Assembly (NCBI GenBank): GCA_000826855.1
Contig: JTLS01000081.1
Coordinates: 1-33,836 of the forward strand
Source of the DNA: Basidioascus undulatus
Taxonomy: Eukaryota
Direction of reading: 5' to 3'
Length of the DNA stretch: 33,836 nt
Part shown: positions 1,019 through 31,046 of the stretch, one piece after another
Layout: every line of letters begins with the position of its first letter
Numbering within the stretch: position 1 is the stretch's first letter
Translations under genes and position numbers: made by a program
Notes under the pieces: generated by a model
Databases searched by the model: none
Told to the model about the DNA's origin: nothing
What the model saw: only the letters and a program-made list of their open reading frames with translations

Positions 1019-1118
1019 CGACCAGAGCAGGATTTGAACCTACGCGGGCATAGCCCAACAGATGATCATTGCAGAAACGCGTTCGAGTCTGTCGCCTTAA
1101 CCACTCGGCCATCTGGTC
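1019..1118 (-). tRNA. tRNA-Ser(CGA) with 18-nt intron (1064-1081)
   Basis: Minus strand reads GACCAGA TG GCCGAGTGGTTAAGGC G ACAGA CT CGA A [intron] A TCTGT T GGGC-TAT-GCCC GC GTAGG TTCAAAT CCTGC TCTGGTC G. This gives a full cloverleaf with long variable arm, G73 discriminator, intron at 37/38, A and B boxes, and TTTATTTT downstream. Confidence 0.95.
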
Positions 1119-6725: not shown

Positions 6726-6816
6726 CGACCAGAGCAGGATTTGAACCTACGCGGGCAAAGCCCAACAGATGTTAGAACATTCTAGTCTGTCGCCTTAACC
6801 ACTCGGCCATCTGGTC
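6726..6816 (-). tRNA. tRNA-Ser(AGA) with 9-nt intron (6771-6779)
   Basis: Same body. Anticodon AGA, intron TGTTCTAAC, variable loop TTT, G73, then CATTTT terminator. Confidence 0.95.
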
Positions 6817-7414
6817 ACTTCCTGAAGATGTGTTCCAACTCAATACCAAGACGTATGCATTTCCCTGATTGAGTCTCTGCGACTTCCGACAGGTCATAGG
6901 ACTACTGGGAGCTTCCCGAAAATTGTAAAACGAATCCCGAGTAAACAAATAAACAATAAAGACGAGTATCAGTGAGCACCAGGCCGGGCGCTGTGCCTGC
7001 TCGATAATGGTCAGGTTTGCACACCGCGACCGCAGCCTCCAGGAGTTTTACTGGCCCTGCCTTCTCCGATGAACTGCCCGGAAAGATGGTGGAGGATGAA
7101 AGCGACAGGGTACATCACTTCGTATGTAACGGAAGGCAGCCACTCGGCAGCCCCACTTTCACCAAACGAGCATCGGCGGCAAGACTCCGGCAGCACGCCG
7201 GACTGGCCTGTTCATGTCTTTTTACGACTTCGGTACTGCTTACCTGTGAGCGAGTTGCAGCTCTGCTGAATTCGTCAAATCTGCTGCAGTGGGTTGGGTA
7301 AAAAACGGTCGAAATGAAAGTCGTCGAGCCCTGGGGGTGAATGCAAGTCCAGCTCCCCCATACAGTATCATTCTGCACAGATCGCCAACCAGCGGTTTTA
7401 TCGACCAAGTGCGC

Positions 7415-8165
7415 CTATGCCCTGCATCTCTTTACGTGTATCTTCTGCAGTCTGAAAAGTCTCCGTGAGACGACTTCGCGGCGCCCGCGCCTCATCCACC
7501 CCGCACTCCCTCCCTGCTGGGCCCCCACACTCCGTCTCCGCGGAGTCGGGAGCGATCGGAGTCGCTGTTGCGCAAGATGTTCTGGACGTTCCTGTTTGGA
7601 AATGCTTTCGTTCCATGGAATCTTTTCGAGGAAGCGGGTCATGAGGATGTGCGATTGGCTGAGGATGCGATAGCCACGGTGTGCAGTTGGAAGATGCGTT
7701 GTTGAGGCTTAGAGGGTCTGCGGTGCTCGAGCACGTTCAAGATGACGGCTTTTCCTCCGCCCGTTCCTTGACTTGAAGAATCGCTTGCACGTGCAACTGG
7801 TGCGACTTGGGATCGCAAACTGCTCTCATGCTGCAACGCTGGCAGGCTGCTTGCAATATGCTGCGGGTGTCTGGCATGTCAGCACTAGCGATCCAACGTG
7901 TGCAGTCAAGTCCAACCAGCTGAGGACGATTACATGTCCTCTGCAGCAGCCAGGCCAGCAACGCGTGCTCATCGATAGGCCCGCCTGCTTCGTTGGGAGT
8001 GCGAGAAAGTCGGAGGCACAGGCGCTCGCAAGCGCTGGTGGGGTCGTTTGATCGGGCGAGAGATCCGAGAAGGTCGTCGGGCGCTTGCGGCCGGCTTGGC
8101 TGTGTTGGGGAAGGAAGGCTAGAAATGCTTGTATTAGATCCTAGTGCGCTCTGTATACTCTTCAT
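7415..8165 (-). pseudogene. Possible MYND-type zinc-finger gene relic, divergent from pyruvate carboxylase
   Basis: The ATG at 8165 has a CACAACA-ATG context similar to actin. Removing a GTAATC..GCTGAC..CAG intron gives QRTSYC. Neighbouring frames give RC..GC, AACQR, PKSH and CKRF, which is MYND-like spacing but needs several frameshifts. Confidence 0.3.
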
Positions 8166-8437
8166 TGTTGTGAGGGTAGATTCTATCGATGGAGGAGATT
8201 GGAAGGCGGTGAAACCGCGTCAGGAAGGCGCCCGCAGCCAGGGAGCTCCAACTTTCTCACGCGGCTGCTGCTATCTCTGGAGGCTAGAGGGAGGTCGACC
8301 TGGTATCTCACCTGCTCCACGCATTGCGCCGGTCTTGCTTTCTCCCTCATCTTATCCTACCCGCCTCCGCGCATATACGCTCCCCCCCCTCCCCAACGAC
8401 CACACTCCCCCACCCACGCTCTGCCTCTAACTGCAAA

Positions 8438-9130
8438 GTGAGTCCGTGCTTAGCGAGCGCAACGGGAGCGGGGGAGTCAGTCGCTAGAAAGGTCCGGGGG
8501 ATCAGCGAGAGACTGGGATGCTGGCTGTGCTCAGCGACCCCCCTTTCGCAAGGGTTGTACGAGGCCGTGCAGCCTGCTTGGGAGCGGCAATCAGCTGGAG
8601 GGAGGACGCAGCTGTGGTTGTGCGTGGATGGTTCTGAGGATGCCTACGGGGGTGCCGATGGCCGTCCTCGGCGACGGCGAGCGACATACCTTTCATATGA
8701 CCTGCTCGACTAGACCTAGACTCTGATATCCCCTTCAAAATCCTCTACGCACGAGACGATGCGCTTCATTTCCTGTACTCCCCATTGACATGCACGCCGT
8801 TTTCTTCAGCGCAGGCGCTGTCCAGCACTCCAATCACCTACGTGCGTTTTGTCTGCTCCTTACATCCCGCCGTCTTGCGCCGTCCTGATACTGACATTCT
8901 GCTCTATTCTCTCATCCTCCTCATACACCTCCTCTTCGCCGACGCCCAACGACGTGTGTTGAAATCCGGGACTGCCCGCGCACGACTCACCGGACTGCCG
9001 TTGCTTCCGGCCGCGCGTCTGTGCGCTATTGCGTTTGCTTCTCGGGTTGTTTCACCGGCTCCGTCCGGACCGGACCCTCGCATATTACCTCTGTCCTGCC
9101 CCTGCCTCCGCGATTCTCTTCAATTTACAG
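8438..9130 (+). promoter_or_regulatory. Putative 5'-UTR introns of pyruvate carboxylase (8438-8809 and 8842-9130) flanking a ~32-nt non-coding mini-exon
   Basis: GTGAGT donor at 8438 follows a C/T-rich leader. TTGAC branch-like site and TTTTCTTCAG acceptor at 8809. GTGCGT donor at 8842, CTGATACTGAC at 8885-8895, TTTACAG acceptor at 9130. No ATG in the predicted leader exons. Confidence 0.55.
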
Positions 9131-9204
9131 TTAACGACCTTATCCTCTCGCAAACCCTCCCCATCTCCTCCTCGGTATCCTCTCTCCCCCCCACCACCAC
9201 CACG

Positions 9205-12200
9205 ATGGCGTCCCCGCACCCGCCTTCGACGCCCAGCACCGCGCCCAACACCCCCGGCCCGCAGACGGTGCACCAAATCCGCGCAAAGTCGGCGGGCCAT
9301 GGCGGGCCCCTCAAGAAGATGTGCGTCCTTTTTTCTCCCATCTCAAGATATTTGCTGGGGTTCATACTGAACGTATGGACTGGGATGGACGGACGACAGC
9401 TTGGTCGCGAACCGAGGCGAGATTGCGATCCGCGTCTTCCGCACCGCGCACGAGCTCGCGATGCAGACCGTCGCGCTCTACTCGTACGAGGACCGGCTCT
9501 CCGCGCACCGGTACAAGGCCGACGAGGCGTACCAGGTCGGCACGGGCCTCACGCCCGTCGCGGCGTACCTCGCGCAGGACGACATCATCCGCATCGCGCT
9601 CGAGCACGGCGTGGACATGATCCATCCCGGCTATGGATTCCTGTCCGAGAACTTCGGGTTTGCGCGTAAGTGCGAGGAGGCGGGGATCGCGTTCGTCGGG
9701 CCGTCGCCGGAGGCGATCGAGGGGCTTGGTGACAAGGTGCGTGCGCTTTCGGTTCTTTGGGCGGTAGTGCGAAGGCGGGTCGAGCGCGTGAGACTGAATG
9801 GGCTGCTGCTTGGGAGAACAGGTCAAGGCCCGCACGCTCGCGATGAAGGTCAACGTGCCCGTCGTGCCCGGCACGCCTGGCCCCGTCGAGTCGTACACCC
9901 ATGCGGATGCGTTCGTCAAGGAGCACGGCTACCCTGTGATCATCAAGGCAGCGATGGGCGGCGGCGGGCGCGGCATGCGTGTCGTGCGGAACCAGGCCGA
10001 CTTCAAAGACTCGTTCGAGCGCGCCGTGTCCGAGGCCACGTCGGCGTTCGGCGACGGCACGGTCTTCATCGAGCGCTTCCTCGATCATCCGCGCCACATC
10101 GAGGTCCAGCTTCTCGCCGACTCGCACGGCAACGTCGTACACCTCTTTGAGCGCGACTGCTCCGTCCAGCGCAGGCACCAGAAGGTCGTCGAGGTCGCGC
10201 CTGCCCCCAACTTGAGCGAGGAGATCCGCAACGCCATCCTCGCCGACGCGATTAAGCTCGCGCAGGCGATCGGGTACAGGAGCGCCGGTACCGCGGAGTG
10301 TGAGTTCACATGCTGAGTGCAAGCGGCCGGGAGACGGCTGAGCTGCGAGAGCTCACGCTTGCTGCTGGTTGCTGCTGGGAATCGATTTGCAGTCCTTGTC
10401 GACCAGATGGGCAGGCACTACTTTATCGAAATCAACCCCCGTATCCAGGTCGAGCACACCATCACCGGTTCGTCGCGCTTCCCCTTGGCCCCCCACAAAC
10501 CACCTTGCTGATTCCCGCCCTCCCATCTCTCTTACACTTTAGAGGAGATCACCGGCATCGACATCGTCGCCGCGCAGATCCAGATCGCGTCCGGCGCGTC
10601 GCTCCCGCAGCTCGGCCTCACCCAGGACGCCATCTCCAAGCGCGGCTTTGCGATCCAGTGCCGTGTCACGACCGAGGACGCCGCGGCCAACTTCCAGCCG
10701 GACACGGGCAAGATCGAGGTCTACCGCTCTGCTGGTGGTAACGGCATCCGACTCGACGCCAGCTCTGGTTTCGCCGGCGCGCAGATCACGGTGCGTCCCT
10801 CTTGTCACAGGGGCTTGAGCGATAGAGAGGCAGGCAGCTGATGCGATCGGGATGCTGGGATTGCAGCCGCACTACGACAGCTTGCTCGTCAAGGTCTCCG
10901 CTCGTGGCTCGACGTACGAGGTCGCGCGCCGCAAGATGCTTCGTGCGCTCGTCGAGTTCCGCATTCGTGGTGTCAAGACCAACATGTGCGTCCTTGACCG
11001 CCTGTCCGACTAGCGCAAGCTCAGCTGACACTGTCATGACCTGCAGCCCTTTCATGTTCCGCCTCCTCACCCACGACGTCTTCGTCTCTGGCAACACCTG
11101 GACGACCGTGCGTACTTCTCAGCCCCTCATTCACGCGTCCGCTCAGCCGCAGACAAACTTCTCCTGACAGTTCATCGACGACTCGCCCGAGCTCTTCAAG
11201 CTCGTCACATCGCAGAACCGCGCGCAGAAGCTGCTTGCCTATCTCGGCGATGTCGCCGTCAACGGCTCCTCGATCAAGGGCCAGGTCGGTGACCCGGGCC
11301 TGAAGACGGAAATCGCGATCCCGACGCTGGAGGACCGCAACGACCCGTCCAAGCCGCTCGACACGTCCGAGCCCTGCACGTCTGGCTGGCGCAACATCAT
11401 CCTCGAGAAGGGCCCCGCGGGCTTCGCCAAGGCCGTGCGCGACTACCCCGGCTGCCTCATCATGGACACCACCTGGCGCGACGCCCACCAGAGCTTGCTC
11501 GCCACCCGCCTCCGCACGATCGACATGGCCAACATCGCAAAGGAGACGAGCCACGCACTTGCCAACGCGTACTCGCTCGAGTGCTGGGGCGGCGCGACGT
11601 TCGACGTCGCTATGCGCTTCCTGTATGAGGACCCGTGGGACCGTCTGGTGCGTTTCTCTTGGAATACGAAGTGAGAACTGGCAGGTTACTGATGCTTGGA
11701 TGAGTCCAACAGCGCAAGCTCCGCAAGCTCGTGCCCAACATCCCCTTCCAGGCGCTCGTTCGTGGCGCCAACGCCGTCGGCTACACGAGCTACCCCGACA
11801 ACGCCATCTACGAGTGCGTTTCCTTCTATCGGTCGCCCCTCGTCCACGCTCAATTGCTGATCCATTCGCGCCGGCAGCTTTTCCAAGAAGGCCGTCGAGG
11901 CCGGGCTCGACATCTTCCGTGTCTTCGACTCGCTCAACTACGTCGAGAACATGAAGCTCGGCATCGACGCGGCTAAGAAGGCGGGCGGTGTCGTCGAGGC
12001 GACCGTGTGCTACTCCGGCGACGTCGCCAGCCCCAAGGAGACCAAGTACACGCTCGACTACTACCTCAACTTTGTCCAGGAGCTCGTCGACTGCGGCATC
12101 CATGTCCTCGGCATCAAGGACATGGCGGGTCTGCTCAAGCCACACGCGGCGACGCTGTAAGTCTGCGAGCCAATTCTGAGCGGTTTAAAACGGGGATGGA

Positions 12201-14489
12201 GAGCCTGACGTGGATGCGGCGAACAGCCTCATCGGCGCTATCCGCAAGAAGTTCCCGGACCTGCCGATCCACGTCCACTCGCACGACACTGCCGGTATCT
12301 CGGCCGCGAGCATGATCGCTTGCGCCCAGGCTGGCGCGGACGTCGTCGACGTTGCCATTGACAGTGCCTCCTCTTCCTGTGCTCTGCAGCTATAGAGGAC
12401 ATTGAATGACCAACCCCCGCTCCCGAACCCAGGCATGTCTGGCCTCACCTCGCAGCCCTCTATGGGCGCTGTCGTCACTGCACTCGAGCAGACCCACCTC
12501 GGCACGGTCCGTCCCTCTCCCTCCGCTCACCTTGCTCGTCTAAGAACGGTACTGATGGAAGATTGTGAACAGGGTATCCGCCACAAGGACATCCAGGCCC
12601 TGAACCTCTACTGGTCGCAGGTCCGGATGCTCTACTCGTGCTTCGAGGCCAACGTCCGCGCATCCGACTCGGGCGTGTTCGACCACGAGATGCCTGGTGG
12701 CCAGTACACGTGCGTAGTCGAGATCTGTAGAAATGCCGAGCCATGAAACAGTTGCTGATGGCGCGAGGACGGAAACAGCAACCTCATGTTCCAGGCGCAG
12801 CAGCTCGGTCTCGGCACCCAGTGGATCGAGATCAAACAGAAGTACATCGAGGCGAACCGGCTTGTGCGTTCCTAATTTCGCACAATTTCCACCCCCTCGC
12901 GAGACGTGATGCTGATGCTGTGGTTGCGCGCTCTTTTTCAGTGCGGGAACATCGTCAAGGTCACGCCGTCGTCCAAGGTCGTTGGTGACTTTGCGGTACG
13001 CCTTTGTTCTGCCTTAACTACCGAGCGATGATCGCTTATGTTCCGAGATGTGTGGACAGCAATTCATGGTCTCCAACAAGCTCTCCGAGCAGGACGTCCT
13101 CGACCGGGCGGACAAGCTCGACTTCCCCTCGTCCGTCGTGGAGTTCTTCCAGGGTGCGTGCGCTCTGTCGCCGCCTTTTAACCTCCCGCTTTTTCACGCG
13201 CTAACCCACTACTTTCGCCTTTGTTAACAGGCTACCTCGGCCAGCCCGTCGGAGGCTTCCCCGAGCCGCTGCGGTCCAAGATCATCCGCGACCGGCCGCG
13301 CGTCGACGGCCGGCCCGGCGCCGGCATGGCGCCCCTTGACCTGCACAAGATCAAGAAGGACCTGACCAAGAAGTACGGCAAGACAATCACCCACTTCGAC
13401 GTCGCAAGCTACGCCATGTACCCCAAGGTCTTCGAGGAGGTGGGTGCCGCTACTTTGTCTGTCGGAGCGTAAAGAAAACAAGGAGCTGACAAGATTGCGG
13501 GAATGTTGGATCACAGTTCCAAGAGTTCGTTGAGAAGGTACGCGGCTGGCTTTGCTATCCGTGTTCGAAGGACTTAGTCTGGCCTGACCCGTTTCGCGCG
13601 CGCAGTACGGTGACCTCAGCGTCGTCCCTACTCGTGTCTTCCTCGCCCGCCCAGAGATCAACGAGGAGATTGCCATCGAGATCGAGCAGTGAGTCGACTC
13701 ACCAGCAGCTCTTGACTAGTGCGCAAGGTCGCTGAGGTGCTAAACTTACGCTGCTTCGCGTCACAGGGGCAAGACGCTGCTTATCAAGCTTCTCGCCGTC
13801 GGTCCCCTCGACCAGGAGAAAGGTGTCCGTGACGTCTTCTTCGAGGTGCGTCTCCCTTGTTTGCAGGTCCTCTGGCGCCAAGGCATTCCGCTGACGATGC
13901 GGCTCTCCGCAGCTTAACGGCGAGGTCCGTGCTGTGCAGATCGACGACCGGTCCGCGGCGACGGGAAAGTGTTTGCGGCTGTTGGAACACCGGACTGCAA
14001 GCTGATCGAGGTACATAACTCCTCAGAGCACGTTACCCGCGAGAAGGCCAAGCGCGACGAGCCGGGTCACGTTGGTTCTCCGATGTCGTACGTCCGCCTC
14101 GCACCGATGCAGGAGTACATTGGCTATTTGATGCTGACAATCGCTCTTCTCCTGGCAGGGGTGTTGTCGTCGAGGTGCGCTGCAAAGAGGGCAGCGACGT
14201 CAAGCAGGGCGACCCGCTTGTTGTCCTCTCGGCGATGAAGGTTCGTCTGCCCAAAGCGGTCGCAAATCTCTGATAGTCCCACTCACTCAACACTCCTCCG
14301 ATCAGATGGAGTCTGTTGTCAGCGCCCCGGTATCGGGCAAGTTGAAGCGGGTTCTCGGTACGCTCGATTCCAATCTTTCTGCAAGCGTGTCGTATGAAAC
14401 TGACTGACGTGTTTCGTTATCGTCCCACAGTCGAGCAGAGCGACTCTCTCGCGCAGGGCGACCTCATCTGCGAGATCGCACACGCGTGA
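9205..14489 (+). CDS. PYC1: Pyruvate carboxylase (25 coding exons)
   Basis: Spliced translation gives [100 protein letters not shown] and biotinyl AMK|M. Exons: 9205-9320, 9400-9736, 9822-10299, 10393-10467, 10543-10790, 10867-10985, 11047-11107, 11171-11647, 11713-11813, 11878-12156, 12227-12363, 12433-12506, 12573-12709, 12779-12863, 12942-12995, 13060-13153, 13231-13439, 13517-13537, 13606-13688, 13767-13845, 13913-13964, 14027-14087, 14159-14240, 14306-14357, 14431-14489. Intron 21 has a GA donor. Confidence 0.98.
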
Positions 14490-14756
14490 GACAGATAATC
14501 CGCGCAGGATCGTGGGCGGACGATTCCATAGACGCTGGGCGAGGCAGCTGGCGGGATCTCAGCAGTTCATACTCAGCTTCCCCCTCTTTTCTCTCTTCAT
14601 ATTGTTTCTTGCTGCATCCTTTTTGGCGATTATTGTTCCTAGGCCTTCCTATTCTGACGCAAAGTGACATGACAATTGATGTAACTATCTGAAGTGCACA
14701 GGGGATGAGTGTGCGTGAGTGGTGTCCGCAAAGACAGGCTGCTGCGAACATTCCCG

Positions 14757-14795
14757 AAGTTGCTCTTGCAAGTTGTTTCTTGCAAGTTGTTCTTG
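14757..14795. repeat. Short imperfect tandem repeat, 3 x ~13 nt
   Basis: AAGTTGCTCTTGC / AAGTTGTTTCTTGC / AAGTTGTTCTTG, read directly from the sequence. Confidence 0.8.
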
Positions 14796-15231
14796 TTTTT
14801 AGCCATCACTCATGCAGCATGATGTTCATTGAAATGTAGGCTATGTTTCAAATCGGGGCAACCAAAAGCGCAAAGGAGAGTTGAAGGGGAGCTGCCGGCC
14901 CTCGGTTGCAAGTTTGCAAGTGCGGTGAGGCTTTGCGGATAAAAACCGACGGGCTGGTCAAGCTTTCTCGGCTCGCTATTCTAGAAAAGTGCGTCATCAC
15001 GAGCAGAAGGGAAGTTCATGTTCGCGGATCGCAAGCTTCACGTGCTTACTTGAAAGGCTGGGTGTACTACCGCTTTTCGCCTTCTCAGTCGTCTTCTTCC
15101 TTGCCGAAGCTCTTCGGGTCCTTGACCTCTGAGGTAGACATTCCAAAAGGAGGAGAGAAATCATGGCACTCCCCGCTGACGCCAAAAGCTCGTTCACCTT
15201 ATCCTAGGAGCATCAGCACGTGCGCGGCGAC

Positions 15232-16992
15232 ATGCACGCATCCCGTTCACACCAGGAGGATGGCCCAGTACAACCCGTCGATGCCCCTGAGACTTCGTCC
15301 TTTGGCCGCGCAGCCAACACCGTCGACGCCGTGATCAGTTTCCTCGCAGTGCTTGGCTCGCTCTGCATGATCGTGCCGTACATCCTCACGCCCAAGCTGC
15401 GGAAGCTACGGCATAGACTCATATTGGGACTCGCAATCTCTGATCTCCTACTGAGGTGAGATATAAAGTGTTCTTGGGCTTGTGGGGACAGGGTCGGGCT
15501 ATGGGCTTCTGGGTGTGAGCTACGTTCTCAGTATATCATGTACACACGCAGTTTTTGCTGATCGATCTGACAAAGCACAGTCCGCTTGACACCTCAACCG
15601 TTAAGAGAATCGCTCTGATATTATATTCTGTCAAATATCTTTCCGACAGCCTTGCCGTGCTCTGTCCCACGCTGTACTGCCTCACCCGCTCGGATGGACC
15701 CGTCCGGCTGGCCAATTCGGCTGCGTGTCCAGCGCAGGGCTTTATCCTCTCGGCGTCGGTGACGACCTGGCATCTATGGGCTCCGGCGATAGCCCTTGCC
15801 ACATACGCCCTCATTAGGGCCCCGCGCAGTAATTGGACGCTTCTGTTGGAGCAGTACTGGGCAGTCATGGCCACTGCGATCTGGCTGGTCGCGATTGGGG
15901 TAAGCGTGGCTGGGTACTTCATCGCAGGCTATGTGGTAGGCCGGCATTCTTCTGCATAGTGGAAGCCCACCGTGAGCTCACCGGTGGTGCGGAACAGTAT
16001 ATAGGGGCTTTCTGCTACTATCCGAACAACACGTTTTCCAACGTCTACATGTTCGTTCCTCGTGCAGTCGCTCTCGTCCTCATCGTCATCCTCTACACTC
16101 GCCTCTACTTTTTCCTCCGTCGCAAGCGCGACCCGGTTCTTGCCTTTGGGACTGCGTCGGACGAGCAGAATGGAACAGGCGAGACGAGCGGCAACAGCGG
16201 GGCAGCTTGGGAAAGGTTAGGGTTGCCGGAGTTCCCTTCCGCGTCGGAAGGACCACAGGCTACAGAGGGCGGTCACTCCCCCTGCTCGCACCCTGATGCG
16301 TTCCCACCGCGAGGCACGTCCCGAGATCATGGCAGCGCGGGCCCGGCCAAAAGAAGCATGAGCGTCCAGACGCATCGCCGCGGGAGCGCGAGTTCAAGAG
16401 TCACTGATGAGCGAGAGGACGAGCTGGGCGGCTATATGCACCGTGTGGTCGGAAAACTGATGCTTCTTTACCCTTTTGCGGTGAGTTTTCATTGGCAATT
16501 TCGCCAATTTTCCACCCAACACGAGTTGACGTGCCTGCGAGTCACGCCCTTTCGAGCGATCAAGTACCTCTGCCTCTTCTCGGTTTCGCTCGTAAAAGTC
16601 ATCTATGATTTCGCAGCACCGTCCGAGTGGGTCTTATTTTCGCTGCTTTCCCGATCCGCAATTGTTTCTGATCTTGTTCGTCTGAAACCGATGATAGGCC
16701 GGCCGCACTGCATGCCGTAGGACGCTGGCTGATGTGCTCTTCAGGGGTAGTTGACGCGGTTATTTACACGTTTGTGGAGTGGAAAGTTCGAACGTAAGTC
16801 TCTTGCAGACGTCTTCAAATTCTACTTTACTGCTTTTCTATAGCAAATATTGCTCAACGGGCCTCACGTTTGCTTCATAGACTCGTGATTGCCAAAGCCC
16901 GAGCGCGGCAGTCGTGTCCCGAGAATGCCCAAGTAGCGACGTTTGTCGGTGGCGGGCTTAGGTTCAGGACGGATAGGGAAACCCGCCGTTAA
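15232..16992 (+). CDS. 7-TM G-protein-coupled receptor, Git3/Gpr1 or cAMP-receptor-like
   Basis: Hydrophobic helices with family-typical motifs: KLRHRLILGLAISDLLLS, CPAQGF, YIGAFCYY, LYTRLYFFLRR, a long third intracellular loop, KLMLLYPFAY and SSGVVDAVIY. Introns begin at 15456, ~15937, 16481, ~16627 and ~16794. The start codon and last acceptor are uncertain. Confidence 0.8.
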
Positions 16993-17266
16993 GATGCAAA
17001 GATTGTGTCCGGCCCGAAGACAATAAATAGCTCACAGCACACCCTGCCCCTGCGCCATTGAGCGTTGTCAAGTTGACTGCGTCACGACAACCAAAGCTTC
17101 GAATTACTTTTACGGCCGCACGCCTGCCTCGTAGAGCGTCGGACACAAATTGCGCTGGCTGAATGACAGATCTGGTCGAGCGCTCGCTGCTGCTTCTGAC
17201 AAGTGAAAGACAAAATAAGACAAACCGGAAGGAAAACAGCCTTGAAGCAAGAACGTGCTGGACAGC

Positions 17267-19557: not shown

Positions 19558-22500
19558 TCAAACGACTTCATAACCTTGGGCATTCAGACCCCATTGCGAC
19601 TCGATGGAAGGCATGCGATGAGGAACGCGCGGCCGGACCGGAGCTGGTGTGACCGCATCGAGTCTGGCAAGTGTCAAAATCAGCAGTAGCCAGGAGGAAT
19701 GGAGTGGATGAGGATCTAAGGCTTACTCCCACTCGCGCCGAAGCCGATTATATACGGCTTTGAAGGCACTGAGCGCGCCCTTCTCCATAACGAGGACGAC
19801 GCTCGTCGCGAAGAGGCTGCCGATCTGCGGCGAGAGGCCCGGCGAACGCGGGCTGCTGCTTGCGCCGTGCAGGTGGATCTCGACGCGGAAGCGAACGGCC
19901 TTCTGAGTCGTAACCATGCCGGTAGGGTCTGGCGATGGTGATGGTGAGCCAAGCTGCTTTGATGTCACCGATACTGAGAAGAGAAACTGCGGACCCCGGA
20001 TCTCGTCCAGTTTACACCGCACCACGCCGAGCCCGTCCTCATCCTGCATGACGGTCGCGACGCCGAAGCTCTCGAGCAGCCGCTGCGCCTCGATGCGGGT
20101 CACGAGGTGGTTCTCCGTTGACAGGAGACTGTAGCTGGCGGGCTTGAACGAGAACATGTTAGAAAACCAGCTACGCTTCGGGCTGGGGCCGGCGCCCGTA
20201 GGGGTTGTCGGAGAGGGAGTGGGCGGCGAGCGGTCGGCGGAGGCGAAGTAGACGGCGGGCCGAGCGGCTGAGAGGTCGATCTCGGCAGCTGAACGTCGAA
20301 GGGTGATCAATAAGAAATCGAGAGGGATAAGAAACAGCGAGGAACGTACGTCGCTTCTTCTTAGACAACTTGCCGGGCAGCGGGATGTTGGCGAGCTTGG
20401 GCGACACCGACGGTACTTGTACAGGCTGGGCAACACGGCCTCCCAACGTGCGCGTCTGAGGTTGAGGGAGGGGGACCTCGTACTTGTCCAGCAGCGCGAC
20501 GATGGGCGACGTGGGCGGCGGACGGGACGCGGCGCCGTTCTCCTTGTCCGAACCACCGGAGGCGGTGCGGGGGACTGGCTGCGCGCTCCAACGCGGAGAC
20601 GTCGAGGGCGCGCCAGGGCTGAGCGCCGCGGGAGTCGGCCCGCGAGTCGTCGGGAACGCGCTGGTGGTCGGACTGCGTCGCGCCGACCGAGTGCGTGCGG
20701 CGGTGACAGCGACGGCGGCAGCGGCGGCGGCAGCGGCGGCGGCGGCAGGCGAAATGTCGTGCGAAGCGGTAGAGTCAAAGCCGAAGCCGAGGCCAACGTC
20801 GGTCGGTCCCGCAGAGAGGGCTGGGGAGGCGGCAGGGCTGGCACCGTCGAGCCAGGGCGAGCTAGCGCTGTCGCTTATATCGTCCTCCGCGTCCTCGAAC
20901 CGGCTGCGGTCGCCGCCTTCGCTCGCGAGAACGGGAGTTGGTGGAGGCGGGTTCACGGCTCCGGGCGGCATCCTGAACATCGCGCCGGGCGACAAGGAGA
21001 GCGGCTCGATCGGCGGTGCGACTGGGCAGACCTGCATCGCGCTGAGCTGCTCGGCGATGTCTTGGAAGAACTGCTGCAGCGCGTGATCCTCGACCTGGGG
21101 GACGGCGATGGAGGTCCTGCCACTGCTCGACTCGCCGCTGCTGGCGAACGACATCGGCGACGTCGGTCGGGGCGACGGAGGAGCTCTGCTTGAGGTCGAC
21201 GCGCTCGATGCAGCGGAGACATGGCTCGTCGAACGGTCCCGCTCCGGCGTCGCCGTCTGGAGCATGATCGCGGGGACGGCGAGGTTCGGCGAAAGAGGAG
21301 CGGGCGTGGCGACGCCGGCGGTCACGAGTCGGGGCGAAGGGGGGACACCGGGATGCTGGTTAGCTTTGCGTGGCGTCAGCGCGTCGGGCCGGATCGGGAG
21401 CTCGCGATGGGCGGGGATCGGTAGGGGTGGGAGGGCCGACTGCGGCGGCGGCTTGGGTGGGGAGACGAGAGAGGGAGGGAGGATCGCGCGCTTGTCGGGG
21501 CGTGGATGGCGCTTCTTCGGCTCGACGGGCTCGTCCATGTTGTAGTTCTCGAGGTGCTTGTTGCGATAACGAAGAAGGAGGAGGTAGATGGCCTTCTCGA
21601 ACGTCGGCCTGCGTTGCGAAAAGTACCGTGAGCGGTCCTGCGCAAGTGGGCTCATGGTTCGGATGGATACGCACTCGTCAACCAGCAGACGCTGAAGGAT
21701 CTTCTCCTCGGGCTCGCCGTGCCACAGCGTCTTGAGGTTGCTGAGGATGTCCGTGTCGACTTCTTCGCGCGTGCGGACGGGCCGCTCGACGTTGCCCATC
21801 TCGAGCCGGCTAGTCGGCGTGCCCGGCAGGCGCGGCGGCAGCCGAGTGAAGAAAGGGTGGACGAGGATCTCGGGCATCTGAGGGAATGGTGAGCATGTCA
21901 GCTTGGTCTCGTGACGCAGGCGGCGTTCAGCTTACGGTGATGCGCATGGCAGGATCGCGTTGCAGCATGCGATGTACGAGATCGCGAGCGTCGCCCGTGA
22001 TGTCCGCGGGCATCTCAAATCGGCCGACCTTGACCTTGTTGAGAAGCGTGCGAATGCTGCGAAGTGGAAGGGGAACCGTTAATGTCACGGTCACGCATTG
22101 GACGACCATGTCGACCGAGACGTACTTCTCGTCGTCGAAAGGCAGACGGCCCGTCAGAAGCGCGAAGAGGATGATGCCGCACGACCAGATGTCGGAGGTG
22201 GAGCCGTGGTAAGCCTTGCCCTGAAGTCCCGCTCTTCGTCAGCATGGGCATTGCAAAAAGCATAGGAATTCCACGCGTACCGAGACGATCTCCGGGCTCG
22301 CGTAATGAGGGCTCCCGCAACTAGTCTCGAGCATGCGGTCGCCGGGCTCGAGCGCGGCCATGCCGAAGTCCGCGACCTTGATGTTGAACTCGCGGTCGAG
22401 GAGCAGGTTCTCCGGCTTGAGATCGCGATGGCAGATGTTGTATGAGTGGCAGTAAGAGACGGCGAAGATGATCTGCTGGAAGTAGTGCAGCGCCTCGTCG

Positions 22501-23152
22501 GGCGGGAGACGTCCGCGCTTGACCAGGTACTCGAAGAGCTCGCCGCCCTCGACGTACTCCATGATGAGGTAGCTGTGGTGGTAGGCGTAAGAACACGAGC
22601 TTTCGAAACCGAGAAAGTAAGGGACGAACAGGTCCTGCGAAGTTTCCCAAACGTCGTAGAGGCTGAGGACGTTTGGGTGGTCGATCTGTTTCAGGGGATT
22701 CCAGGGGACGGCGTCAACAAGGGACCGAGCGGAATACAGCTTCGGAAGCGGATACTGACAAGCTTCATGATAACAATCTCGCGCTCAATCGCTTGGAGCA
22801 TCTTGTCGTTGCTGGGCCCGTTGAGCGAGAGACGCGACGACAGCAGCCGCTTCGGCAAGATCTTGATCGCCGCGAACTGGCCCGTCACAGAGTGCTTCGC
22901 GATCTTGACCCGTCCTGTTCCAATGAAACGCGTCAGCCTGCCACTTTCCATCTCCGTGTGAAGAAGTATCATGTCGTCCAACTCACCACTGCTCCCCTTC
23001 CCAATCGTCCGCCCTATGCGCCACGGCCCTATGGCCTTGGGGTCCTCCTTCACCTTCGGAGGTACTGCGTTGCGGAGGGGAGGGCGGTGTCGAGATTGAG
23101 AGGGACCGGCATGAGCGTGAACGGGCGGCCGAGCGTATGCCGCAGCGGACAT
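19558..23152 (-). CDS. Nim1-family Ser/Thr kinase (Gin4/Hsl1/Cdr2-like) with C-terminal KA1 domain, 11 exons
   Basis: [92 protein letters not shown], a Pro/Ser-rich linker, then KRSWFSNMF and [18 protein letters not shown] (KA1). Ends WELDAVTP..GYEVV after an intron starting near 19725. Confidence 0.93.
20714..20746 (-). repeat. (GCC/GCT)11 poly-alanine tract in the kinase linker
   Basis: Eleven consecutive Ala codons. Confidence 0.9.
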
Positions 23153-25685: not shown

Positions 25686-27664
<1,979 letters not shown>

Positions 27665-29502: not shown

Positions 29503-31046
29503 TTAAGCCTTCCCACTATTGAGCGCCTTGCTGAGGTCGATTCCGAGCAAACCTTTGATAATTTTGAGACCCCCAAACCCTTCGGGAGGCCATCGACGAG
29601 GCCTGAGAGCCTGAGGAAGCCGAGCTGTAATAGTAGCAATGGTGGAAGGTTCAGGTGAAGAGCGGAGGGATAGGTGCTGGTGGAGGACGCGTACGAGTGA
29701 GCCGACGAGGTTGAGAATGCCGGTGAGCAGAAGGCCCACCCCCGAGCTGCAATTATGAGAGAGTAAGGTAGTTGTCCCTCGACAAAGAAAAAGCACGTGC
29801 CGTACAATCTGCACGATCGGGTTACTAAGTCCTTCGAGCAGTGGGAAGAGATCCTTCTTGGCCTTCGGCATGCCTTCGGTCTTGCTCTTCGCGTTCTCGA
29901 TCGTCTTGATGATGGTCTCAACGAGCTAGAACAGACCGACGCCAATACATCAGAGAAAGGTGAACGCTTTCCGATGCGAAACAAAGAAAACGATACCCGC
30001 GCCAAACCCTCTGCGAGGCGATGTTCCACCGGCGTAGCCTCGCGGTTCTTGTCCGCCTGCTTGGCCTTCCGAGCGATGCTGCCTTTCTGCATCGACACAA
30101 CGCGAGTAAATTCAATGTTCGGAAAGCAACGCTGGACAAAGATTACCCAGGGGATCCGCGCCTTTGATCATACCATGCGTTTCCTTGAGGATCGCCTGCG
30201 CTTGCTCGATGAGCGGCTTGACTTTGTCGACAAGGGCTTTCTGGAACTGCTCGTCCTTCTTTTCCTCTTCGAGTTTCTCGCTCGCACGGTTGATGGCCTG
30301 AGCGGAGGGCAGAGAAAGAAGTAGGACGCGCGGAATTCTAGCGGTGCAATGAGGGAAACGGAACTGTACGTCGTTGATCATGTCGCAAATCCTACAGAGG
30401 TTGAGACGATCTGCATGTCAGAACGGTAGACGGGCGGACGGAAGAACACAAGCAACTTACGGCTTGACGCGCTCCCAGTCCGAATAAACAAGCGAGCGGC
30501 GAGCGCGGTAGCCTTCTCGTCCTCCGCAGCCTTCGCCTTGTCGGCGTCCTCCCTTCCCTTGAGCAGCGCGTTGACCTTCTTCTTCGCGTCCTCGATCACC
30601 GCGGGAACGTCGACTTGAGCTGCAGGGTCCGCACTCAACGTCAGCGCACCGAAGAGAATCAGGAAGCACAAGAAGTGGCAGAACAGTACTGTACCTTGTT
30701 GAGGCTTTCGTCGAGATGGTACTCCTCGGGCGACGCCTTGTGCCGCCTTCACGTTGCTCGCCGCGGCGCGTGAGAGATTGCTCTGGCGGTCGACGTGCCG
30801 GACCTCGCCGAGCGCGCCCTCGTGCGCAGCCGACGCCTGCGAGATGAGCGGGCGGACGCGAGAGGCGAACCCCTGAGGGTCGAGCTTCTCTTTCTCGATG
30901 TTGTTCGCCTCCTTGATGGCCTGGTCGGAGAGCGCGGTACCTTGGTCAGCTCACCGTTCACGGTTGAACGAACACGCGAGGAATAACGTACTCCTTCAGC
31001 ATCCTGACGATAGGCTTGAGATGTTCGAGCGACCTATCGGCGACGT
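29503..31046 (-). pseudogene. Unprocessed pseudogene of a fungal helical protein (DUF6987/LEA-domain-protein-like) with an internal duplication
   Basis: Motifs LVDKVKPLIEQAQAILKETHGMIKGADP, REATPVEHRLAEGL, IENAKSKTEGMPKAKKDLFPLL, GVGLLLTGILNLVG, plus an upstream repeat VRPLISQAS..HKASPEEYHL. Frameshifts occur near 30743, 30616, 30495, 29745 and 29563. One donor reads CTGGGT instead of GTGGGT (30145-30150). The family name is from recall and was not searched. Confidence 0.75.

What the first reader, a model, noticed from the sequence alone, without database searches (positions are those of the whole stretch)
13965..14026. Non-canonical GA-AG intron gating the biotin-carrier domain of pyruvate carboxylase
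Seen: exon 21 reads ..GAC CGG TCC GCG GCG ACG G|GAAAGT..GCTGAT..CCTCAG|AG CAC GTT ACC. Removing 62 nt yields [16 protein letters not shown], which matches the usual fungal PC linker. The nearby GT donors fail: 13951, 13969 and 13981 are the wrong phase, 13971 creates TAG, and 13934 deletes conserved residues. Retention hits TGA at 14003-14005, ahead of the BCCP domain with AMKM. Positions +3..+6 are the perfect U1 match AAGT, while only 1 of the 23 GT donors in this gene is GTAAGT (11 are GTGCGT). That pattern is what compensation for a weak +2 position predicts. Established: GA-AG introns are real but very rare. Inference: this could be a rate-limiting splice switch that gives either full enzyme or an NMD target / biotin-domain-less protein.
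Basis: partly seen in the sequence, partly recalled or inferred. Interest (0 to 1): 0.8.

Follow-up and report, generated by a model that had tools for sequence, protein, structure and literature searches.

The report
Real GA-AG intron in pyruvate carboxylase
One of the 24 introns of a fungal pyruvate carboxylase gene starts with GA instead of the near-universal GT and is still removed exactly in the messenger RNA; this is a rare but known kind of intron, and nothing shows that it acts as a switch.

Summary
Window 9205-14489 (+) is a 25-exon, 1189-aa basidiomycete-type pyruvate carboxylase gene. Intron 21 (13965-14026, 62 nt) has donor CGG|GAAAGT, a CTGAT branch motif at -25 and a CAG acceptor. 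No GT/GC-AG intron joins the conserved flanks in frame.

Contigs of two DNA runs from two studies match the window over 10 kb with no difference, so A at 13966 is not an assembly slip.

A third run holds a 3915-nt spliced mRNA contig. Its length, piece coordinates and per-bin cover fit only removal of exactly these 62 nt. The joint row itself was cut from the table, so this is arithmetic, not a printed joint.

The donor matches CAG|GTAAGT at 7 of 9 positions, the best of the gene's 24 donors. That fits compensation for the weak +2 base.

None of 71 fungal relatives that cover the site has an intron there.

The "splice switch" reading has no support. No retained-intron contig lies on those bins, the RNA fold is unremarkable (z +0.99), and there is no conservation.

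GA-AG introns are known, including 35 (0.038%) in a curated basidiomycete annotation. Verdict: new member of a known kind, modest interest.

The parts
9205..14489 (+). Pyruvate carboxylase coding region: 25 exons, 24 introns, 1189 aa
   Evidence: Homolog-guided junction search. About 80% identity over the full length to basidiomycete pyruvate carboxylases. The exon sum equals the transcript contig.
13913..13964 (+). Exon 21 (52 nt), [17 protein letters not shown] plus the first base of the next codon
13965..14026 (+). Intron 21, 62 nt, GA-AG, phase 1
   Evidence: Sequence. No canonical in-frame alternative keeps the conserved residues. Removed in the mRNA contig by length, piece and depth arithmetic.
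13965..13970 (+). Donor GAAAGT, preceded by CGG
   Evidence: Matches CAG|GTAAGT at 7 of 9 positions, the best of 24 donors. A at 13966 is identical in the DNA contigs of X1 and X2.
14002..14006 (+). CTGAT, likely branch site, 25 nt before the 3' end
   Evidence: 15 of the gene's 24 introns carry a CTRAY-type motif (CTGAY in 14) between -21 and -36. Function as a branch site is inferred.
14003..14005 (+). TGA met in frame if the intron is retained
   Evidence: frame 1
14012..14026 (+). 3' end of the intron, TACATAACTCCTCAG
14027..14087 (+). Exon 22 (61 nt), (E)[20 protein letters not shown], linker before the biotinyl domain
14232..14240 (+). A-M-K of the AMKM biotin attachment motif (end of exon 23); the final M is at 14306-14308
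   Evidence: That this motif is the biotin attachment site is recalled knowledge.
8438..8809 (+). 5'UTR intron 1 (372 nt, GTGAGT..CAG)
   Evidence: Joint in the X3 contig; sequence
8842..9130 (+). 5'UTR intron 2 (289 nt, GTGCGT..CAG), after a 32-nt exon at 8810-8841
   Evidence: Joint in the X3 contig; sequence

Best explanation
Intron 21 of this pyruvate carboxylase gene is a genuine major-spliceosome (U2-type) intron. Its 5' end is GA in the genome, not GT. It is removed exactly at 13965-14026 and gives the full-length, biotin-domain-bearing enzyme as the main transcript.

Inferred mechanism: recognition by U1, and later U6, tolerates the A at +2 because every other donor position from -1 to +6 fits the consensus (G|G-AAGU). 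The branch motif, pyrimidine stretch and CAG acceptor are ordinary for this gene.

The intron is lineage-specific. The GA is most simply a fixed T-to-A change in an originally strong GTAAGT donor, or the state in which the intron arose.
For: Shown:
1; contigs of runs X1 (2014, study P1, word depth 16.6) and X2 (2025, study P2, depth 52.5) each cover window 7000-17000 in one piece, with 0 other letters and 0 indels.
2. X3 record 4 is a 3915-nt contig at depth 116.5. 15 GT..AG skips are printed, every one at an intron of my model or of the 5'UTR. X3 is therefore RNA-derived, although labelled 'DNA?'.
3; the model with the 62-nt cut predicts a contig of 3915 nt, and 3915 was observed.
4., my arithmetic: the record holds 431 nt between window 13437 and 14430, and the model gives 431.
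5; bin depths of 48.5 (13680-14013) and 64.9 (14014-14347) are reproduced only by this cut, left-aligned as 13964-14025. Retention predicts 65.9/69.1. GT13934-AG14028 predicts 38.0/63.8. GC13958-AG14028 predicts 46.4/63.8. GT13971 predicts 50.9/64.5. GT13969 predicts 50.2/64.5.
6; 0 GT/GC-AG candidates join cores 13916-13960 and 14029-14085.
7; in the alignment of 84 full-length homologs plus the model, the 24 homolog rows printed show no gap at the junction.
8; length 62 nt (gene range 61-93) and CTGAT at -25.
9; donor match of 7 of 9, the top of 24.

From papers (passages read):
- GA-AG introns number 35 of about 92,100 (0.038%) in the curated Ganoderma lingzhi annotation (PMC11590231).
- A GA donor is functional in Trema SYMRK (PMC10668435).
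- GA donors are usable in human reporters (PMC6280755).
Against: - The row for this very joint was not printed (15 of 30 joints shown), so the exact joint rests on arithmetic. It also assumes that introns 17-20 and 22-24 are as modelled.
- X1 and X2 are both flagged as possible sources of the window. Zero differences suggest one strain, so the support for the A is not fully independent.
- Contigs cannot show rare isoforms or a heterozygous base.
- The U1/U6 pairing argument uses the recalled general consensus. The organism's own snRNAs were not seen.
- Splicing efficiency was not measured.
Confidence: 0.88

Rival explanations
1. The GA donor makes intron 21 a rate-limiting or regulated step. 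A sizeable and condition-dependent share of transcripts would keep the intron, or use the GT at +5 (13969). These would meet a premature stop and be degraded, or give an enzyme without its biotin carrier.
For: - Retention does meet TGA at 14003-14005, and the GT at 13969 gives a frameshift.
- In human reporters GA ranks low (GC > TT > AT > GA > GG > CT), and non-canonical sites depend on enhancers (PMC6280755, passages).
- Recalled and not read: GA sites were called 'dead-end' in the title of Brackenridge 2003.
Against: - The depth of the two bins around the intron equals the spliced contig alone, so no retained or alternative contig was laid there.
- Intron 21 does not differ in this from the other introns.
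- The fold of 13935-14056 has z = +0.99; 168 of 200 shuffles fold at least as well.
- No relative has the intron (0 of 71), so there is no conservation signal.
- Only one RNA-derived run was seen, as contigs and under one condition, so this is weak evidence either way.
Confidence: 0.07
2. Base-call or assembly error: the true donor is GTAAGT.
For: One substitution would make a perfect consensus donor.
Against: Logan contigs are built from the reads of each run. Those of X1 (depth 16.6) and X2 (depth 52.5), from two studies, both agree with the window at every one of 10,001 positions.
Confidence: 0.02
3. A second allele or paralogue with a GT donor and identical exons supplies the spliced mRNA, while the GA copy is a null allele.
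For: Contigs drop minor variants, and many basidiomycetes are dikaryotic (general knowledge).
Against: - There are no other letters in 10 kb in either DNA run or in the mRNA contig.
- A heterozygous genome would be expected to show further differences or broken contigs. Here single contigs span the whole stretch.
Confidence: 0.03
4. A canonical but protein-shortening splice is the real one: GT 13934 to AG 14028 (minus 11 aa), or GC 13958 to AG 14028 (minus 3 aa).
For: Both are in frame and open.
Against: - They predict bin depths of 38.0/63.8 and 46.4/63.8, against the observed 48.5/64.9. They also predict contig lengths of 3882 and 3906 (my arithmetic: 33 and 9 nt shorter), against 3915.
- They delete residues kept without a gap in the 24 homolog rows printed from the 84-homolog alignment.
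- The GC donors GCGACG and GCGGCG are poor.
Confidence: 0.01

Closest known systems
GA-AG introns in curated fungal annotations (Ganoderma lingzhi 'golden' annotation, PMC11590231; passages and Table 1 read)
   Same: A basidiomycete with a GA donor and AG acceptor. These are rare: 35 of about 92,100 introns, 0.038%.
   Different: That paper gives a census and does not mention this gene. Here a single case is worked out in a housekeeping enzyme, with the position shown to be unoccupied in 71 relatives.
Trema orientalis SYMRK intron 12 GA-AG (PMC10668435; abstract and passages read)
   Same: A single-base change gives a GA donor in an otherwise normal intron, and the gene stays fully functional.
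   Different: The Trema site derives from a GC donor in a conserved intron. Here the ancestral state is unknown and the intron is not shared with the relatives sampled.
Human FGFR GA 5' splice site (Brackenridge et al. 2003, EMBO J 22:1620; seen only as cited and summarised in PMC7072748 and PMC6280755, since PMC152907 is not held)
   Same: Efficient use of a GA donor by the major spliceosome.
   Different: [quoted passage not shown] Here the nearest upstream GT is 13951, 14 nt away.
[quoted passage not shown]
   Same: GA-AG introns supported by RNA data.
   Different: Those genomes use GA in a few percent or more of introns, possibly with a variant U1. Here 1 of 26 known introns is GA, and the genome-wide rate is unknown.

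Membership tests
U2-type non-canonical GA-AG intron | The genomic sequence has GA at +1/+2 of the removed segment | tested here: met
   Window. The contigs of X1 and X2 are identical to the window.
U2-type non-canonical GA-AG intron | The segment is absent from mature mRNA at exactly these borders | tested here: met
   X3 contig length is 3915, equal to the model. There are 431 nt between the flanking pieces. Bins 48.5/64.9 fit only this cut. The joint row itself was not printed.
U2-type non-canonical GA-AG intron | AG at the 3' end with a pyrimidine-rich stretch, and a CTRAY-type branch motif upstream | tested here: met
   CTCCTCAG and CTGAT at -25, as in the gene's other introns. Use as a branch point was not tested.
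U2-type non-canonical GA-AG intron | Not a U12-type intron | tested here: met
   The donor GAAAGT and the 62-nt sequence lack the U12 donor (ATCC-type) and the TCCTTAAC-type branch box. Both motifs are recalled, not from a call.
FGFR-type GA site helped by an adjacent upstream GT | A canonical GT donor six nucleotides upstream | tested here: not met
   There is no GT between 13952 and 13964; the nearest is 13951.
Genome with elevated GA-AG usage (E. affinis / O. dioica type) | GA donors in a percent or more of introns, possibly with a variant U1 snRNA | not testable with these tools
   No genome is held. GAAAGT occurs 13 and 10 times on the two strands, within the range of the other hexamers counted. 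No snRNA gene lies in the window.
Pyruvate carboxylase | Biotin carboxylase, carboxyltransferase (HMGL-like plus PYC_OADA) and biotinyl domains in one chain, with an AMKM motif | tested here: met
   About 80% identity end to end to proteins named pyruvate carboxylase. Pfam domains of homolog P0009. AMKM in the model. The model itself was not sent to Pfam, because it is a joined sequence.

The most novel reading that the evidence does not exclude
The GA donor is kept by selection as a throttle. Splicing of intron 21 would be slow or condition-dependent (for example with biotin or carbon supply), so that part of the pre-mRNA is diverted to a stop-containing form ahead of the biotin carrier domain. 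A variant of this reading is that this fungus uses GA donors far more often than other fungi, with an adapted U1 snRNA.
Probability: 0.06. Interest if true: 0.55.

Novelty: new member of a known kind. Interest (0 to 1): 0.3.

Why it matters
The main value is practical. Gene finders that allow only GT/GC-AG would call this essential anaplerotic enzyme truncated, frameshifted or 3-14 residues short, so the case is a useful check for annotation of this genome. It also adds a transcript-backed GA-AG intron in a fungal housekeeping gene. Its donor is otherwise the best consensus match in the gene, which fits the idea that a weak +2 base is tolerated when the rest of the site pairs well. It opens no long-standing question.

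Tried and rejected
I then worked by coordinates and with fetched proteins.
- No whole genome is held, so there was no genome-wide scan for GA donors, U1 genes or a second gene copy.
- The look-up of sequencing runs: no RNA holder is listed as such. X3, labelled 'DNA?', turned out to be spliced.
- Read laying: I laid 10 kb, and the joint table was cut at 15 of 30 rows, so the row for intron 21 was lost. I recovered the answer by arithmetic.
- Orthologous intron in relatives: the metagenome scan gave 80 fungal loci, none with an intron at this position. The ancestral donor therefore could not be read. No close relative was found; the best full-length identity is about 81%.
- RNA structure around the intron: z = +0.99, so nothing there.
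- Similarity of the intron to other parts of the window: only chance 9-11-mers, so no sign of a repeated 'introner'.
- Earlier notes of the scan: nothing for this genome and nothing relevant by words.
- Brackenridge 2003 (PMC152907) is not held.
- Searches failed on term format and were reworded.
- The other genes of the window were not modelled, so their introns were not checked for GA donors.

Full report
**What is there**

Window 9205-14489 on the + strand encodes a pyruvate carboxylase. I fetched fungal homologs with the translation of the largest exon. The best matches to that exon were 84-87% identical. No identical protein was listed, so this genome's own annotation is not in that collection.

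I used the homologs to guide a junction-by-junction search. The model has 25 exons, 24 introns and 1189 residues with no internal stop. It is about 80-81% identical end to end to pyruvate carboxylases of diverse basidiomycetes.

- 11 GTGCGT
- 3 GTACGC
- 2 GTGAGT
- 2 GTTCGT
- one each of GTAAGT, GTGCCT, GTCCGT, GTGGGT and GTACGT
- the odd one, CGG|GAAAGT, at 13965

**The observation**

The segment 13965-14026 is 62 nt. It begins GAAAGT and ends CTCCTCAG. Its removal joins ...SAAT to EHVTREKA. Reading through meets TGA at 14003-14005.

Between the conserved cores 13916-13960 and 14029-14085, no GT-AG or GC-AG intron of 40 nt or more keeps the frame open (0 candidates).

With relaxed cores, every canonical option of 40 nt or more deletes conserved residues:
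- GT 13934, 13929 and 13925
- the weak GC donors 13931, 13955 and 13958

The other nearby donors also fail with the acceptor at 14026:
- GT 13951, 13969 and 13981 shift the frame.
- GT 13971 creates TAG.

GC 13997 with AG 14028 is in frame but only 32 nt long, and it adds residues.

I aligned 84 full-length homologs (those over 1100 aa of the 120 fetched) with the model. The 24 homolog rows printed show no gap at the junction; the only length difference lies a few residues downstream, inside exon 22.

The cut 13964-14025 would give the same mRNA, because 13964 and 14026 are both G. GA..AG is the reading that keeps an AG acceptor.

In other respects the intron is ordinary for this gene:
- Its length of 62 nt falls in the gene's range of 61-93.
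- CTGAT lies at -25; 15 of the 24 introns carry such a motif between -21 and -36.
- The acceptor is CAG.

**Is the A real?**

One search for sequencing runs gave three holders. X1 dates from 2014 (study P1). X2 and X3 date from 2025 (one sample, study P2).

I laid them on window 7000-17000. X1 (word depth 16.6) and X2 (52.5) each cover the whole 10 kb in one contig, with no other letter and no indel. Both are flagged as possible sources of the window and probably represent one strain. They are not fully independent, but they are separate read sets, so a consensus slip is unlikely.

**Is it spliced there?**

X3 is labelled 'DNA?', but its record 4 is a 3915-nt contig at depth 116.5 that skips GT..AG segments. 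The 15 joints printed are the two 5'UTR introns and coding introns 1-13. This is a transcript.

I therefore tested the model by arithmetic.

1. With my 24 introns and the two UTR introns, the predicted contig length is 3915. The observed length is 3915.
2. Between the printed pieces ending at window 13437 (record 3215) and starting at 14430 (record 3647), the record has 431 nt. The model gives 431.
3. Depth per bin is contig depth times the covered fraction. The model reproduces 22 of the 24 bins compared (the last six of the 30, from 15016 on, were left out) to within 0.4.
4. The two bins around the intron are matched exactly (48.5 and 64.9), and only by the 62-nt cut in its left-aligned form.

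The alternatives predict different depths for those two bins:

| Splice | Bin 13680-14013 | Bin 14014-14347 |
|---|---|---|
| Observed | 48.5 | 64.9 |
| Intron retained | 65.9 | 69.1 |
| GT 13934 - AG 14028 | 38.0 | 63.8 |
| GC 13958 - AG 14028 | 46.4 | 63.8 |
| GT 13971 | 50.9 | 64.5 |
| GT 13969 | 50.2 | 64.5 |

Because the sums equal the one contig, no other X3 contig (retained or alternative) lies on these bins. Contigs can miss rare forms, so this is presence of the spliced form, not proof that others are absent.

**How it probably works**

Scored against the recalled consensus CAG|GTAAGT, the GA donor matches 7 of 9 positions. That is the highest of the 24 donors; the typical GTGCGT sites match 4-6. 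Only one other donor has AAGT at +3 to +6. GTAAGT is also rare in the whole window: 3 and 4 occurrences on the two strands, against 22 and 14 for GTGCGT.

This fits two non-exclusive histories. In one, a strong GTAAGT donor suffered a T-to-A change and still works. In the other, selection favoured strong pairing elsewhere to offset the +2 mismatch. Which snRNA contacts carry the load is inference; the organism's snRNAs were not available.

The site is not of the FGFR kind as summarised in PMC7072748, since there is no GT six bases upstream. It has no U12-type motifs (motifs recalled).

**Relatives**

A metagenome scan with exon 17 gave 80 fungal loci.
- 71 of the 80 cover the junction.
- None has an intron there. 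Two were flagged by my break-point count (L023, L041) and two had odd alignments (L024, L042). On inspection, all four read straight through the junction.
- 26 show a break 12-13 codons upstream (residues 134-135 of the query). In the loci inspected this is an intron at NGEV|RAV.

The intron is therefore specific to this lineage among those sampled, and its ancestral donor cannot be read.

**The 'gating' idea**

The junction lies in the linker. It maps to residues 1116/1117 of homolog P0009, between PYC_OADA (880-1080) and Biotin_lipoyl (1131-1196). Retention would indeed cut off the carrier domain.

Nothing suggests that this happens to a meaningful degree:
- Only the spliced contig was laid on those bins.
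- The fold of 13935-14056 is no more stable than shuffles (z +0.99).
- There is no conservation.

I put this reading at about 6-7%.

**What is known**

These are passages read with 'find', not whole papers.
- GA-AG is a recognised rare class. It accounts for 35 introns (0.038%) in the manually corrected Ganoderma lingzhi annotation (PMC11590231).
- It makes up about 0.01% or less of introns in five plant genomes, and a functional GA donor is known in Trema SYMRK (PMC10668435).
- In human reporter assays donor usage ranks GC > TT > AT > GA > GG > CT (PMC6280755).
- Brackenridge et al. 2003 on the FGFR GA site was seen only as cited; it is not held.

I found no paper on this gene, but I ran only two successful searches, both on GA-AG in general. 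I make no claim that it is unpublished.

**Verdict**

- The 'non-canonical GA-AG intron' reading is supported, including by transcript evidence.
- The 'splice switch' reading is unsupported.

It is a new member of a known, rare kind. Its main value is for correct annotation, and the interest is modest.

Noticed in passing
window 8408-9204: The transcript contig shows two long 5'UTR introns (8438-8809, 372 nt; 8842-9130, 289 nt) around a 32-nt exon (8810-8841). They are much longer than the 61-93-nt coding introns. The 136 nt of 5'UTR in the contig hold no ATG.
   Followed up: partly
window 13517-13537: Exon 18 is a 21-nt micro-exon (FQEFVEK) between introns of 77 and 68 nt. It is present in the mRNA contig according to the length arithmetic.
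   Followed up: partly
window 13346-13679 and 9338-9671: X3 depth exceeds what the single mRNA contig explains, by 28.6 and 5.9. Loose ends of other contigs lie at 13354, 9405 and 9444. These may be other carboxylase transcripts, another organism or an assembly branch. Unexplained.
   Followed up: no
L002, L023, L041 and other loci: 26 of the 80 fungal relatives show a break 12-13 codons upstream of this gene's intron 21 (residues 134-135 of the query); in the loci inspected it is an intron at NGEV|RAV. This gene instead has introns at FFE|LNG and SAAT|EHV. Its introns 19, 21 and 22 are shared by 2 of 80, 0 of 71 and 4 of 71 loci by a rough break-point count.
   Followed up: partly
window 1019-1118, 2469-2572, 6726-6816 (- strand): Three tRNA matches of 91-104 nt, long enough to hold introns (Rfam). 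ARAGORN calls only the third, tRNA-Ser (AGA).
   Followed up: no
window 21930-22784 (-), 26535-27462 (-), 29506-30950 (-): Pieces of a protein kinase gene, an actin-family gene and a DUF6987 gene (Pfam on open segments). These genes were not modelled, so their introns were not checked for non-canonical ends.
   Followed up: no
window 20001-22000: A G+C-rich stretch (0.66-0.68 against 0.50-0.60 elsewhere) with strong positive GC skew.
   Followed up: no
run X3: The run is labelled 'DNA?' but holds spliced contigs, so it is RNA-derived. The label is a guess that fails here.
   Followed up: yes
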